A stretch of DNA of 21,973 bases from a virus (Duplodnaviria > Heunggongvirae > Uroviricota > Caudoviricetes), in IMG/VR virus record IMGVR_UViG_3300044445_000054. The stretch is one strand, 5' to 3'. This document shows positions 6,186-21,740 of this stretch, piece after piece. Position 1 is the stretch's first letter; each line of letters opens with the position of its first letter. The translations under genes were made by a program, and so were the position numbers. The notes beneath the pieces are model-generated. The model ran no database searches, was not told the origin of the DNA, and saw only the letters and a list, made by a program, of their open reading frames with translations.

Positions 6186-6781
6186 AGTATTGGGCCGTCT
6201 ACCTGACCACGACGGGTGAGATTGTCTCCCAAGTCAACTGTCCCACACACCCCCGGTTCAACGGGTTTCCTTGGGATGGCACCATCCACACGGCTAAAGA
6301 ACTGCCTGCTGGTGGTGACGAGGCGTACCAGACTTGGAACAAGACCACCAAGACTTGGGAGGAAGACCCGACCAAGGTCGAGACCATGCTGCTCGACGAC
6401 ATCAAGCGCAAGGCCGAGCAGCTGAAGATGGGGTCGCTGTCGCCGGGCGGTGCGAAGAAGACCGAGTACGCCGACAAGGCCCGCGAGATTGTGGCGTGGG
6501 ACCAGCTCGGCGGCACGCTGGCGGCGATCCTCGCCGCGCTCGCGCTGCTGCCGCCCGACGTGCGCGCGGTGCGGTTCGCCTATGCCTATGCGGATGCGGC
6601 AGCGCACGGCGACACGCCGCAGGCGGCGATCGCGCGCTTCAAGGCAGGCATGACGAAGTCGAACCCGGTGCCGCGGCTGGCCGCCTTCGAGGCAAAGCTG
6701 TGTCTGGACATAAAAAATGCCGCGACCGCCGCGCAGAAGCGGGCGGTCGCGGCGGCAGCTGCCACGAAGTGGCCTAGCTGA
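6182..6781 (+). CDS. Tail-fibre assembly chaperone-like protein
   Basis: ATG 6182 overlaps the J stop (ATGA); 199 aa. The W..D...W..D segment followed by an Ala-rich helical C-terminus is typical of proteins encoded right after tail fibres. Confidence 0.55.
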   Translation: MKYWAVYLTTTGEIVSQVNCPTHPRFNGFPWDGTIHTAKELPAGGDEAYQTWNKTTKTWEEDPTKVETMLLDDIKRKAEQLKMGSLSPGGAKKTEYADKAREIVAWDQLGGTLAAILAALALLPPDVRAVRFAYAYADAAAHGDTPQAAIARFKAGMTKSNPVPRLAAFEAKLCLDIKNAATAAQKRAVAAAAATKWPS

Positions 6782-7247
6782 GCTTCGTCTCGGGCGCGAA
6801 CCGGCGGATCATGTCACCCGCCTTGCCCGGCAGCGGGCGGTCGTCGGACAGGTTGCCGGTCTCCATCGCGTCGAGCACGATCGCCGAGCAGGCCATCGCA
6901 TGGCCAAGGTGGTGGACGTGGCTGATCGGATCGTAGTCCTCGCCGTCGAGGAACTGGAGCATGTGGCGCATCGCCGCGGCGACATACACGCGGGCCAGCA
7001 CCGGGTTCTCGCGCCAGTTGAACGGCCCGTACTTCTTGGCACCGTCCATCATGGCGGTCGCCAGATGCAGCGACGCCGACGGCGGCACGACCGACAGGTC
7101 GACCTTGGTCGCACCGATCAAGTCCTTGGGGTTGATCCCGGCCGGGGTCGGGGCAACGCGCTCCAGCACTTCCTCGGTAATGTCGATCGGGACGGGGATG
7201 CCCTCGGCGCGGAGCGCGGCGGCGGGGTCGAAGGGAGTGTCGGTCAT
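6774..7247 (-). CDS. DUF5664-like (dATP/dGTP diphosphohydrolase family) protein
   Basis: 157 aa with the family pattern K.DLS..P...GAKKYG..NWR...Y..AA.RH...F..GED.DP.S...HL.HA.AC. ATGA-coupled to thyA. Confidence 0.75.
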
Positions 7248-20299: not shown

Positions 20300-20944
20300 T
20301 TACTTGGCCTTGCCGATCAGCTTGAAGCCGACGACGCCCCACTCGTTGTTGTTCTTGTTGCGCTGCGGCAGGCATTCGATCTCGACCTCGACCTCGTCGA
20401 GGGCGAAGCCCTTCTCGCGCACGTCCTGATAGAACGCGTTCCAGAACTTCACGCCGGTGATCGCCGGAGTGATGCCAAGGCGCTGGCCCTTCTTCGCGCC
20501 GGGGACGTCTTCGCCCAGCAGGAAGGGCACTTCGACCGTACGGTACGGACCGTCGACCTTGGTGTTGTTGGCCTGCAGACGCGCCGTCGCCTGCTGGAAG
20601 TTCTCGCCCTGCGAGGTCTTCAGGCCGTCATACGACTTGATGAAGGTCGTATTGCCACCCGTGTTGGCACGGACCGACATGATGACGGCCACTTCCTTCA
20701 TGTTGATGCGGCCCTTGGCCTTCTGGAAGTACGGGTTGGTGTCGATGCGGAGGCCCGCATCCTTCACCGAAAGGTACGCATCGACGACCATGCCGGAACT
20801 GTCGGCGAGATCATCAAGGGTCAGGGCGGCGGGTGCCGTGGTCTGCGTGAGGGCCGTACCGGCGACCTGCGTCGAAGGCAGGTTCGAGGTGGCGTCCGCA
20901 GCTGCGGCGGCCTGGTCCATCACGGAGTCGAGAGCAGAGGTCAT
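20300..20944 (-). CDS. Putative single-stranded DNA-binding protein
   Basis: 214 aa with a flexible Ala/Thr N-terminus, beta-rich core and aromatic C-terminal hairpin (RNKNNNEWGVVGF). Followed by its own terminator, suggesting high expression; replication-module context. Function is inferred. Confidence 0.5.
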   Translation of the reverse strand: MTSALDSVMDQAAAAADATSNLPSTQVAGTALTQTTAPAALTLDDLADSSGMVVDAYLSVKDAGLRIDTNPYFQKAKGRINMKEVAVIMSVRANTGGNTTFIKSYDGLKTSQGENFQQATARLQANNTKVDGPYRTVEVPFLLGEDVPGAKKGQRLGITPAITGVKFWNAFYQDVREKGFALDEVEVEIECLPQRNKNNNEWGVVGFKLIGKAK

Positions 20945-20996
20945 GTAAAAGTTCCAGTTCATTATCGGTTGCGTTGAAACCCCGAGGGGTGAGGCC

Positions 20997-21024
20997 CTTC
21001 TACAGGCCGGATCAGATCATGCAA
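20997..21024 (-). promoter_or_regulatory. Candidate promoter for the putative SSB
   Basis: TTGCAT, 16 nt, TAGAAG on the minus strand between the tmRNA and ATG 20944. Confidence 0.3.
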
Positions 21025-21054
21025 ATCTCCATTTAGATACTACAGTGTAAGATT

Positions 21055-21273
21055 GGAGTGGCCCGTTTTTGTGATCGGTGGGCCAAGCCGCCGGTGGGTC
21101 AGGCTGCGAGAGCCATGACCTCCGAGGAGTCGTTGTCGTTGGCAGTTATTCAGATCACGGCATGCCTGTCGAACCAATTCGCCCCCAGTGAACGACCCTG
21201 CGGACAGAGCCGATGGTGGAGGCGGCGAGCTACGAACTCGCGTCCAGACGAACCGCCCGGCCTTGCGACCGGA
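21055..21273 (-). ncRNA. ssrA: Circularly permuted two-piece tmRNA (acceptor piece ~21273-21214, 27-nt intervening segment 21213-21187, coding piece from 21186)
   Basis: Acceptor piece ends GGAC-GCGAG-TTCGTAG-CTCGC-CGCCTCC-ACCA. Coding piece starts GGGGGCG-AATTGGTTCGAC, giving a 7-bp acceptor stem with G3.U70. CAGGCATGCCG pairs with CGGTTCGTCTG (9/11). Resume context AATAACT-GCC is present. Outer ends are approximate. Confidence 0.93.
21099..21143 (-). other. tmRNA tag reading frame, ANDNDSSEVMALAA*
   Basis: GCC AAC GAC AAC GAC TCC TCG GAG GTC ATG GCT CTC GCA GCC TGA; starts ANDN and ends LAA, as SsrA tags do. Confidence 0.92.
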
Positions 21274-21278
21274 TGACC

Positions 21279-21307
21279 GATCTAGGCTGGCGCTTACCGC
21301 TTGTCAA
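21279..21307 (-). promoter_or_regulatory. Sigma70 promoter of the tmRNA
   Basis: Perfect TTGACA (21307-21302), 17 nt, TAGATC (21284-21279). Predicted start near 21273, at a GCAA-tetraloop hairpin (21257-21272). Confidence 0.75.
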
Positions 21308-21335: not shown

Positions 21336-21740
21336 ATGTCCAACATTCATTACGTCGCAGGCTTGTTCGACGGAGAGGGTACGGTCTCAATGGCCAAGCC
21401 CTCTACCGCTGAGTTCTATGTGCCTGTCCTGTCGCTCAGCAGCACCGATCGTGTGCTCTGCGAAGTCATGACCACCGTGCTTGGCGGCGGCAACGTCTAC
21501 GAGAAGCGGCAGAACACCCGCCCGGCGCACCACAAGCGGTGCTTCGAATGGCGATGGAAGGGAGCGGGAAGCCTCGCAGGCATGGAGCAACTGGCTCCGC
21601 ATATTCTATGCCCAAAGAAGCGGGCACGGATGGCCTTCCTGCTGGATCGCTACGCCGCGGTCACCCGCCGCAACGGTAAATACAGCGCGGAGGAAGCCGC
21701 GGTGAAGGCGAACCTCCACCACGAGTTCTTCACGGTCTAG
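21336..21740 (+). CDS. Free-standing single-motif LAGLIDADG homing endonuclease
   Basis: YVAGLFDGEGTV motif at the N-terminus; 134 aa; opposite strand to all neighbours; codon usage more A/T-ending than the core genes. Confidence 0.85.
   Translation: MSNIHYVAGLFDGEGTVSMAKPSTAEFYVPVLSLSSTDRVLCEVMTTVLGGGNVYEKRQNTRPAHHKRCFEWRWKGAGSLAGMEQLAPHILCPKKRARMAFLLDRYAAVTRRNGKYSAEEAAVKANLHHEFFTV

What the first reader, a model, noticed from the sequence alone, without database searches (positions are those of the whole stretch)
21055..21307. Phage-encoded, apparently intact two-piece (permuted) tmRNA with its own promoter and tag
Seen in sequence: on the minus strand, promoter, then acceptor piece ending in CCA (21214), a 27-nt spacer, and a coding piece (21186) carrying the tag ANDNDSSEVMALAA. 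Also present are a G3.U70 acceptor stem, P2 pairing between the pieces, and a possible pseudoknot (GGCCC/GGGCC stem whose loop GATCAC pairs with the upstream GTGATC). Established: permuted tmRNA is the alphaproteobacterial form, C-terminal LAA is a ClpXP degron, and Caulobacter tmRNA affects the timing of replication initiation. tmRNA genes are known from some phages, but I know of few permuted examples in phages. Inference: the phage supplies its own ribosome-rescue RNA, using host SmpB (none in this window), directly upstream of its replication genes. It might counter defences that cleave mRNA or tRNA and stall ribosomes, or redirect proteolysis. ORF-based annotation misses it entirely.
Basis: partly seen in the sequence, partly recalled or inferred. 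Interest (0 to 1): 0.9.

Follow-up and report, generated by a model that had tools for sequence, protein, structure and literature searches.

The report
Phage-borne compact two-piece tmRNA gene
This uncultured phage, a distant relative of Caulobacter phage Seuss that probably infects sphingomonads, carries a real and structurally conserved split ("two-piece") gene for tmRNA, the RNA that rescues stalled ribosomes; such phage genes are already known and common, so this is a new, stripped-down member of a known kind.

Summary
On the minus strand, 21272-21057, lies a circularly permuted tmRNA gene (Rfam RF04321, 53.5 bits against a cut-off of 47). The acceptor piece ends in CCA at 21214. A 27-nt spacer hairpin follows, and the coding piece starts at 21186. 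The acceptor stem has G3.U70 and the tag is ANDNDSSEVMALAA.

Six related phage contigs, two of them complete with terminal repeats, carry a homologue at the same spot. Every helix pairs in all seven genes, with compensatory changes, and the Ala codons differ only at synonymous positions. It is therefore phage DNA under selection, not host DNA or an integration scar.

The form is reduced: short P2, no PK1, one 3' pseudoknot. This copy alone has a non-alpha T-loop (UUCGUAG).

The kind is known. A 2022 survey found 53 unique two-piece forms in phage genomes. Sphingobium phage Lacusarx has one (90.7 bits). At least 89 IMG/VR contigs show the alpha-type layout. This scan has reported phage two-piece tmRNAs many times, including another on this same record. 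One close relative has lost the gene.

Most likely function: trans-translation with host SmpB, AlaRS and RNase P. This is inferred, not shown. Interest is modest.

The parts
21279..21307 (-). Host-type promoter: -35 TTGACA (21307-21302), 17-nt spacer, -10 TAGATC (21284-21279)
   Evidence: Read. The same layout, a TTGAC-like hexamer (degenerate in L008), 16-17 nt and TAGAT(C/G/A), stands before six homologues; L362 keeps only the TAGATC, with no clear -35. It is not called by the E. coli consensus scan. It resembles the Caulobacter sigma-73 consensus, from my own knowledge.
21257..21272 (-). 5' leader hairpin of the acceptor piece: CCGGUC-GCAA-GGCCGG
   Evidence: Present in the MFE fold. All 7 homologues have a hairpin here, each with a different but fully paired sequence. 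The alpha_tmRNA model RF01849 has a hairpin at this place (alignment).
21214..21256 (-). Rest of the acceptor piece: P2b 5' strand GCGG (21256-21253); P2a 5' strand GUCU (21249-21246); GGAC; T arm GCGAG-UUCGUAG-CUCGC (21241-21225); acceptor 3' strand CGCCUCC (21224-21218); A; CCA (21216-21214)
   Evidence: Rfam alignment and helix table. The T stem shows compensatory changes among homologues. The T-loop UUCGUAG is unique among the 7 homologues but recurs in an unrelated viral tmRNA-like gene, L340.
21187..21213 (-). Intervening segment, to be excised: 8-bp hairpin CGGCUCUG-UCCG-CAGGGUCG (21212-21193) plus UUCACU
   Evidence: MFE fold. The spacer in relatives is 45-140 nt, each with a closing stem.
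21144..21186 (-). 5' part of the coding piece: acceptor 5' strand GGGGGCG (21186-21180); D-loop analogue AAUUGGUUCGAC (21179-21168); P2a 3' strand AGGC (21167-21164); P2b 3' strand CCGU (21160-21157); 13-nt linker with no PK1
   Evidence: Bacterial sphingomonad ssrA genes have about 70 nt with PK1 at this place.
21099..21143 (-). Tag reading frame: resume codon GCC, then ANDNDSSEVMALAA, stop TGA
   Evidence: Translation. ARAGORN at -ps80 gives the same tag. Homologues encode ANDN...(A/R/L)(L/R)AA, with synonymous third-base variation in the first and the last two Ala codons.
21057..21098 (-). 3' pseudoknot and end of the coding piece: S1 CGG (21090-21088) with CCG (21078-21076); S2 GGCCC (21084-21080) with GGGCC (21064-21060); then ACU
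   Evidence: S2 shows double changes in 5 of 7 pairs. S1 covaries as CGGU/ACCG, CGGC/GCCG and CAGG/CCUG in relatives. It is only 3 bp in the window. The hairpin is almost the same as that of Sphingobium phage Lacusarx.

Best explanation
This is a functional, phage-encoded, compact two-piece tmRNA.

Host RNA polymerase starts at the conserved TTGACA-17-TAGATC promoter and makes a precursor of about 215 nt. No terminator follows, so transcription probably runs on into the replication genes.

Host tRNA-processing enzymes then cut out the 27-nt spacer hairpin: RNase P at G21186, and 3' trimming back to the encoded CCA at 21214. This leaves an acceptor piece of about 59 nt and a coding piece of about 130 nt. 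The two pieces are held together by the 7-bp acceptor stem and a short two-part P2.

Host AlaRS charges the RNA through G3.U70. Host SmpB and EF-Tu deliver it to ribosomes stalled on broken mRNA. Translation resumes on GCC and adds ANDNDSSEVMALAA. The ribosome is released, and the ...LAA end marks the product for ClpXP-type proteolysis.

The phage thereby raises the rescue capacity of the infected cell.

Shown here: the gene, its anatomy, its conservation and covariation, and its location on phage DNA.
Inferred: transcription, processing, charging, SmpB use and the benefit to the phage.
For: - RF04321 hit above the cut-off. ARAGORN finds a permuted tmRNA with the same tag at a relaxed threshold.
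- Six relatives carry a homologue at the same spot, just upstream of the 220-aa gene. Two of them are complete genomes with direct terminal repeats.
- All six helix classes are 100% paired within each phage, against 49-96% when strands are swapped between phages. RNAalifold finds compensatory changes in the 3' hairpin and the T stem.
- G3.U70, discriminator A and CCA are invariant.
- The tag keeps ANDN at the start and AA at the end, and its Ala codons vary only synonymously.
- The promoter layout is conserved in six of the seven.
- No SmpB, no integrase.
- No near-identical host ssrA in 401 alphaproteobacterial genomes.
- Precedents: phage two-piece tmRNAs in PMC9004378, and Lacusarx.
Against: - No expression, processing or tagging data exist.
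- PK1, important in E. coli tmRNA (my own knowledge), is absent, and P2 is very short.
- This copy is the most divergent of the seven. Its T-loop UUCGUAG lacks the usual A58. Its D-loop analogue differs from the alpha type. S1 of the pseudoknot is only 3 bp, and the conserved loop GAGCAACAGAA has become GAUCACAAAAA.
- It scores 53.5 bits, against 127-155 for bacterial alpha ssrA, and it fails RF01849 and default ARAGORN.
- Helix boundaries were chosen by eye, which favours pairing.
- A close relative (L361) has deleted the gene. More distant relatives and phage Seuss lack it.
Confidence: 0.7

Rival explanations
1. A tmRNA mimic that re-routes or blocks host trans-translation instead of boosting it. 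It would compete for host SmpB, or replace the host tag (ANDNEA(F/L)AIAA) with a phage-specific 14-residue tag, so that rescued products meet a different fate.
For: - Phage tags differ from the presumed host tags in length and in their ending.
- The unrelated sphingomonad phage Lacusarx has a similar ANDND...RLAA tag.
- The L009 tag ends in ARAA, an atypical degron.
- A TLD-only phage tmRNA (DS6A) inhibits host tmRNA (PMC4131195).
- The Lacusarx authors suggested counteracting host tagging (PMC5648845).
Against: - The full tag frame, resume context, stop codon and ...LAA ending are kept here, as expected for ordinary tagging.
- Nothing in the sequence separates a decoy from a working tmRNA.
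Confidence: 0.13
2. In this particular phage the gene is a decaying, no longer functional copy of a tmRNA that still works in the sister phages.
For: - It is the only one of seven with a non-alpha T-loop and D-loop analogue, the weakest pseudoknot S1 and an altered conserved loop.
- It has the lowest-grade hit: RF01849 fails and default ARAGORN fails.
- The gene is dispensable in L361.
Against: - Every helix is still fully paired, including compensatory T-stem and P2a changes specific to this copy.
- G3.U70, CCA, the resume codon, the frame and the stop codon are intact.
- The D-loop and T-loop changed together towards the standard UUC/GG pattern, which looks like co-adaptation more than decay.
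- The T-loop UUCGUAG occurs in another viral tmRNA-like gene, and Lacusarx has yet another T-loop.
Confidence: 0.13
3. It is host chromosomal ssrA picked up by misassembly, or an attP-type fragment of a temperate phage that integrates into ssrA.
For: - ssrA is a frequent integration site (PMC4383910).
- The window's record is 131,277 bp while relatives are about 83 kb. Earlier notes place the same genes about 83.9 kb apart, so the assembly may be longer than one genome unit or may join two strains.
Against: - Both pieces and the promoter are complete, not a 3' fragment.
- The same locus sits between the same phage genes in six other contigs, two of them with terminal repeats.
- No integrase in the relatives.
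- No matching host ssrA.
- The gene is about 105 nt shorter than sphingomonad ssrA genes.
Confidence: 0.02

Closest known systems
Two-piece (circularly permuted) tmRNA of Alphaproteobacteria (prototype Caulobacter; Rfam RF01849, general model RF04321)
   Same: - Gene order: acceptor piece, spacer, coding piece.
- 5' hairpin.
- Acceptor stem with G3.U70 and an encoded CCA.
- GGAC...UCGAC junctions, and P2 between the pieces.
- ANDN...AA tag.
- Terminal pseudoknot with a CAACAGAA-type loop.
- The sister phages carry the alpha T-loop GGCAGUA and pass RF01849.
- The 3' pseudoknot motif is that of Sphingomonadaceae: 15 of 101 genomes of that family against 2 of 401 across the class.
   Different: - The coding piece is about 130 nt instead of about 235 nt.
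- No PK1, only one downstream pseudoknot, and P2 reduced to 4+4 bp.
- The tag is 14 residues and ends in ALAA; the sphingomonad tag is 11 residues and ends in AIAA.
- The window copy has T-loop UUCGUAG and UGGUUCGAC, and fails RF01849.
Phage-encoded two-piece tmRNAs: Methylophilales phage Melnitz and pelagimyophages (PMC9004378); Sphingobium phage Lacusarx (KY629563, 74849-75121; PMC5648845)
   Same: - A permuted tmRNA on a lytic-type phage genome, with no SmpB gene found in the window or in three essentially complete relatives of this phage.
- It sits behind an early, host-type promoter.
- The Lacusarx tag is ANDNDVVTAEVRLAA, and its 3' hairpin GGCCC-loop-GGGCC almost matches the window's.
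   Different: - A different phage lineage: Seuss-like, PolA 40% identical to Seuss.
- No blastn similarity to any INPHARED phage.
- Lacusarx keeps a region of about 70 nt upstream of the tag where PK1 lies, and scores 90.7 bits.
- No riboswitch as in Melnitz.
Mycobacteriophage DS6A TLD-only tmRNA (PMC4131195)
   Same: A reduced phage-borne tmRNA derivative that depends on host SmpB.
   Different: DS6A lacks a tag frame and acts as an inhibitor. The RNA here keeps a complete, conserved tag frame.

Membership tests
Permuted (two-piece) tmRNA, Rfam RF04321 | Covariance-model score at or above the gathering cut-off | tested here: met
   53.5 bits against 47, full model. Relatives score 47-66 bits, with L007 at 35. 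Bacterial genes score 127-155.
Permuted (two-piece) tmRNA, Rfam RF04321 | Circular permutation: T arm, 3' acceptor strand and CCA lie upstream of the 5' acceptor strand and the tag frame | tested here: met
   CCA at 21216-21214, G1 at 21186, tag at 21143-21099.
Permuted (two-piece) tmRNA, Rfam RF04321 | 7-bp acceptor stem with the G3.U70 alanine identity pair, discriminator A and 3' CCA | tested here: met
   GGGGGCG/CGCCUCC plus ACCA. Invariant G.U in all 7 homologues, with one compensatory G-C to C-G change in L009.
Permuted (two-piece) tmRNA, Rfam RF04321 | T arm with a tRNA-like 7-nt loop, and the D-loop analogue GG..UCGAC | tested here: inconclusive
   The 5-bp stem, a 7-nt loop and UGGUUCGAC are present. 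The loop UUCGUAG is neither the standard type (with A58) nor the alpha type (GGCAGUA). The same loop occurs in the viral tmRNA-like gene L340.
Permuted (two-piece) tmRNA, Rfam RF04321 | Tag reading frame starting at an Ala resume codon and ending in a hydrophobic ..AA degron plus a stop | tested here: met
   ANDNDSSEVMALAA followed by a stop. Conserved with synonymous codon changes.
Alphaproteobacterial tmRNA, Rfam RF01849 | Score at or above the cut-off; alpha T-loop GGC(A/G)GUA and AGGAUCGAC | tested here: not met
   No RF01849 hit in the window at gathering threshold. The sister phages do pass, at 53-73 bits.
Canonical tmRNA architecture | Pseudoknot PK1 between P2 and the resume codon | tested here: not met
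   Only 11-13 nt lie between P2b and the resume codon in all 7 phage genes. Bacterial sphingomonad genes have about 70 nt there.
Canonical tmRNA architecture | Pseudoknot(s) downstream of the tag | tested here: met
   One H-type pseudoknot. S2 covaries and S1 covaries in relatives. S1 is only 3 bp in the window.
Functional tmRNA | Processing into two pieces, alanylation, SmpB binding and tagging of stalled products | not testable with these tools
   No expression or biochemical data. SmpB is absent from complete relatives, so a host partner would be required.
Phage-encoded (not host or attP) tmRNA | Located inside a phage genome, syntenic in relatives, with no integrase and no identical host ssrA | tested here: met

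The most novel reading that the evidence does not exclude
Sphingomonad phages of unrelated lineages (this Seuss-like clade and Lacusarx) share a phage-specific tmRNA lineage whose tag (ANDND...A/R-LAA, 14-15 residues) differs from the host tag (ANDNEA(F/L)AIAA). The minimal, PK1-less RNA would then not be a spare copy of host ssrA. It would be a takeover device that gives rescued products a different fate, or that keeps ribosome rescue running when a host defence cuts mRNA or tRNA. In this phage the tRNA-like domain has in addition been retuned away from the alpha type.
Probability: 0.12. Interest if true: 0.6.

Novelty: new member of a known kind. Interest (0 to 1): 0.3.

Why it matters
The result adds a high-GC lineage, probably of soil or freshwater sphingomonad phages, to the phages known to carry two-piece tmRNA. 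It also shows how far the RNA can be trimmed while all remaining helices stay under selection: no PK1, 4+4-bp P2, one pseudoknot.

The family is nearly invisible to the usual finder. ARAGORN at default settings called 1 of 5 related genes, and gave that one the wrong tag. Surveys based on ARAGORN therefore under-count such genes.

A natural loss (L361) beside natural carriers offers a ready comparison for asking what a phage gains from its own tmRNA. None of this changes the picture of what tmRNA is.

Tried and rejected
- Exact-pattern scan of viral contigs for the window's T arm plus acceptor end: no hit.
- Scan of bacterial genome contigs for the T-loop plus CUCCACCA motif: 120 hits. None of the four hits that even have a paired T stem looks like a tmRNA, ARAGORN finds nothing in 117 of the 121 extracted stretches (tRNA only in the rest), and the count is near chance for 17 specified bases. 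This scan was wasted.
- blastn of the window's and L009's tmRNA against INPHARED phages: no match.
- Megablast of the whole window: only thymidylate synthase hits.
- Metagenome scan with the 220-aa protein: returned only contigs already held.
- Search for a GGUUCGAC-type coding-piece start in 151 Sphingomonadales genomes: noise at the level of the control. The single exact hit lies inside a protein gene.
- Look-up of the window's own 220-aa protein to read the rest of its 131-kb record: not on record.
- Idea that tmRNA travels with RNA-repair genes: RNA ligase and the CCA-enzyme family were not found in tmRNA-bearing relatives.
- Idea that tmRNA and the neighbouring LAGLIDADG-like gene move as one cassette: rejected. 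L361 has the endonuclease gene without tmRNA, and six relatives have tmRNA without it.
- The E. coli-consensus promoter scan does not see the promoter.
- The MFE z-score of the precursor is unremarkable at -1.19.

Full report
**1. What is there**

Rfam's general model for permuted tmRNA (RF04321) matches 21257-21099 on the minus strand over its full length: 53.5 bits, cut-off 47, E 4.2e-8. Reading the strand gives, in order:
- TTGACA (21307-21302), 17 nt, TAGATC (21284-21279).
- A 6-bp GNRA hairpin (21272-21257).
- Two short strands, GCGG and GUCU, then GGAC.
- A T arm, GCGAG-UUCGUAG-CUCGC.
- The 3' acceptor strand CGCCUCC, then A and CCA ending at 21214.
- A 27-nt spacer that folds into an 8-bp hairpin.
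- From 21186, GGGGGCG, the D-loop analogue AAUUGGUUCGAC, and the partner strands AGGC and CCGU.
- A 13-nt linker.
- GCC AAC GAC ..., which translates to ANDNDSSEVMALAA plus stop.
- A hairpin GGCCC-15 nt-GGGCC, ending near 21057.

The acceptor stem has G3.U70. ARAGORN finds nothing at default settings. At an 80% threshold it calls a permuted tmRNA with exactly this tag.

**2. It is phage DNA**

The window encodes a 1718-aa tail-fibre-like ORF (assigned from its size and sequence only; no family search was run), thymidylate synthase (from the phage annotations under the matches), SbcCD-like nuclease subunits, a lysozyme, dUTPase, exonucleases, a family A DNA polymerase and a 5'-3' exonuclease. 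The nearest cultured relative is Caulobacter phage Seuss, with PolA 40% identical and the same gene order.

Four IMG/VR contigs have PolA 81-84% identical. Two of them are 83-kb genomes with direct terminal repeats, rated 100% complete. In these relatives, and in two further assemblies found through the adjacent 220-aa protein, a permuted tmRNA sits at the same place, just upstream of that gene.

Complete relatives have no SmpB and no tyrosine integrase. blastn of the window's tmRNA against 401 alphaproteobacterial genomes gives only short weak hits. Host DNA, a phage-host chimera and an attP fragment are thus excluded for practical purposes.

**3. It is under selection**

Seven homologous genes could be compared. 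The 5' hairpin, P2a, P2b, T stem, acceptor stem and 3' hairpin are each 100% paired within every phage. When 5' and 3' strands are swapped between phages, pairing falls to 49-96%. There are 7, 7, 4, 4, 2 and 6 different versions of these helices.

RNAalifold, run on each piece separately, recovers the 3' hairpin with double changes in 5 of its 7 pairs, and the T stem with compensatory changes. I chose the helix limits by eye, which favours pairing, so the swap control is the fairer number.

The tags are:
- ANDNDSSEVMALAA (window)
- ANDNDSQVAYALAA
- ANDNGEAVSLRLAA
- ANDNSEVYHLRLAA
- ANDNDTSEVYARAA
- ANDNDSSERMLLAA
- ANDNHEVSDLRLAA

The resume codon and the last two Ala codons vary only at third positions, as expected if the peptide is what matters.

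The promoter layout is conserved in six of the seven genes; L362 keeps only the -10 box. An E. coli-consensus scan does not call it. It fits the alphaproteobacterial type, from my own knowledge.

**4. How it differs from bacterial genes**

Bacterial alpha ssrA genes score 127-155 bits on RF04321. Sphingomonad examples have a coding piece of about 235 nt, with PK1 and two downstream pseudoknots, and the tag ANDNEA(F/L)AIAA.

The phage genes have a coding piece of 130-145 nt. Only 11-13 nt lie between P2 and the resume codon, so there is no PK1, and there is one downstream pseudoknot. That pseudoknot is of the sphingomonad kind. Its motif occurs in 15 of 101 genomes of the family of a named Sphingomonas, against 2 of 401 across the class. 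L009's first 20 bases of the coding piece equal those of sphingomonad ssrA. The likely host and source lineage is therefore Sphingomonadaceae.

The conserved partner of the hairpin loop is the CGG(U/C) or CAGG just upstream.

**5. What is special to this copy**

All six sister genes have the alpha T-loop GGCAGUA and AGGAUCGAC, and five of the six pass RF01849 on the fetched loci. Only the window has UUCGUAG and UGGUUCGAC, and it fails RF01849.

It also has the shortest spacer (27 nt against 45-140), the shortest P2a, a 3-bp S1 and an altered loop. This could be decay. However, every helix is intact with its own compensatory changes, and the two loops that touch in a tRNA-like fold changed together.

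The same T-loop occurs in an unrelated viral tmRNA-like gene. Phage Lacusarx has yet another, AGCGUUA.

**6. The locus is variable**

- A LAGLIDADG-like ORF (21336-21740, plus strand; phrog_5046) is inserted between the conserved upstream ORF and the promoter. It is absent from the fetched flanks of the IMG/VR relatives and of Seuss.
- L361, a close relative, has this ORF (71% nt identity) but has lost the tmRNA.
- More distant relatives (92-98% complete) and Seuss have no permuted tmRNA.
- Some relatives have a tRNA gene right after the tmRNA, and long spacers with a T-arm-like element.

**7. Comparison with what is known**

- Buchholz et al. 2022 (PMC9004378) found tmRNA in 402 of 18,146 phage genomes, with 53 unique two-piece forms.
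- The 2025 tmRNA database lists 79 unique phage sequences (PMC11915505).
- Sphingobium phage Lacusarx was reported with a tmRNA (PMC5648845). I find it is permuted, at 90.7 bits, with tag ANDNDVVTAEVRLAA and a 3' hairpin almost identical to the window's.
- In IMG/VR, 89 of the first 120 hits to the alpha coding-piece motif have the acceptor piece upstream. 27 more permuted genes turned up with a second motif.
- This scan has itself reported many phage two-piece tmRNAs, and another on this same record.

**8. Verdict**

This is a real, conserved, phage-encoded two-piece tmRNA of reduced architecture. It is most likely functional with host factors (about 0.7). It is a new member of a known kind, so interest is modest.

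A caveat on the record: it is 131,277 bp, while relatives are about 83 kb, and earlier notes describe the same gene 83,945 bases apart. The assembly may exceed one genome unit or join two strains. I could not read it. The local context is nevertheless confirmed by the relatives.

Noticed in passing
window 21336-21740 (+): A 134-aa ORF with a LAGLIDADG-type motif (YVAGLFDGEGTV, read by eye) matching phrog_5046, with no Pfam hit. It is inserted between the conserved upstream ORF and the tmRNA promoter. It is absent from the fetched flanks of the IMG/VR relatives and of Seuss, but present (71% nt identity) in L361, which lacks the tmRNA. It therefore moves independently of the tmRNA.
   Followed up: partly
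window 20985-21050 (-); also L006-L009, L361: A conserved block lies between the tmRNA and the 220-aa gene: GGAG-N-TTTGCATGA (a strong Shine-Dalgarno sequence plus ATG of a 2-7-codon mini-ORF; MI-stop here), followed by a hairpin GGCC-UGUAGAA-GGGCC. It occurs once in the window and is kept even where the tmRNA is deleted. It may be a translational leader or regulator of the replication genes.
   Followed up: partly
window 20300-20962 (-): The 220-aa protein has no Pfam or PHROG family and heads the replication module. It has 79 homologues, all in uncultured phage-like contigs. Its true start is probably the second ATG (near 20947), because relatives begin MA(N)xSALDS.
   Followed up: no
L362:1044-1173, L008:4619-4758: The spacers of some sister tmRNA genes are 130-140 nt. 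In L362 the spacer holds a T-arm-like GGGTTCGACTCCC element. tRNA genes (Leu-CAA in L007, Ile-GAT in L005, one more in L362) follow the tmRNA directly.
   Followed up: partly
L001/L008 (IMGVR_UViG_3300034069_001161): Default ARAGORN calls a permuted tmRNA in only one of the related phages, and assigns it a wrong 25-residue tag (AQGLTREPGN...). The real frame gives ANDNSEVYHLRLAA.
   Followed up: yes
window 6774-7247 (-): An ORF matching PF18909 (dATP/dGTP diphosphohydrolase N-terminal domain, E 4.8e-27) lies next to thymidylate synthase, with a dUTPase gene about 5.5 kb away. This hints at a nucleotide-pool editing module and perhaps at modified DNA.
   Followed up: no
whole record (not readable here): The window's record is 131,277 bp, but complete relatives are about 83 kb. 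Earlier notes describe the same 3954-base gene at two places 83,945 bases apart, and a different tmRNA about 62.6 kb before the window. The assembly may be longer than one genome unit or may be a join of two strains.
   Followed up: no
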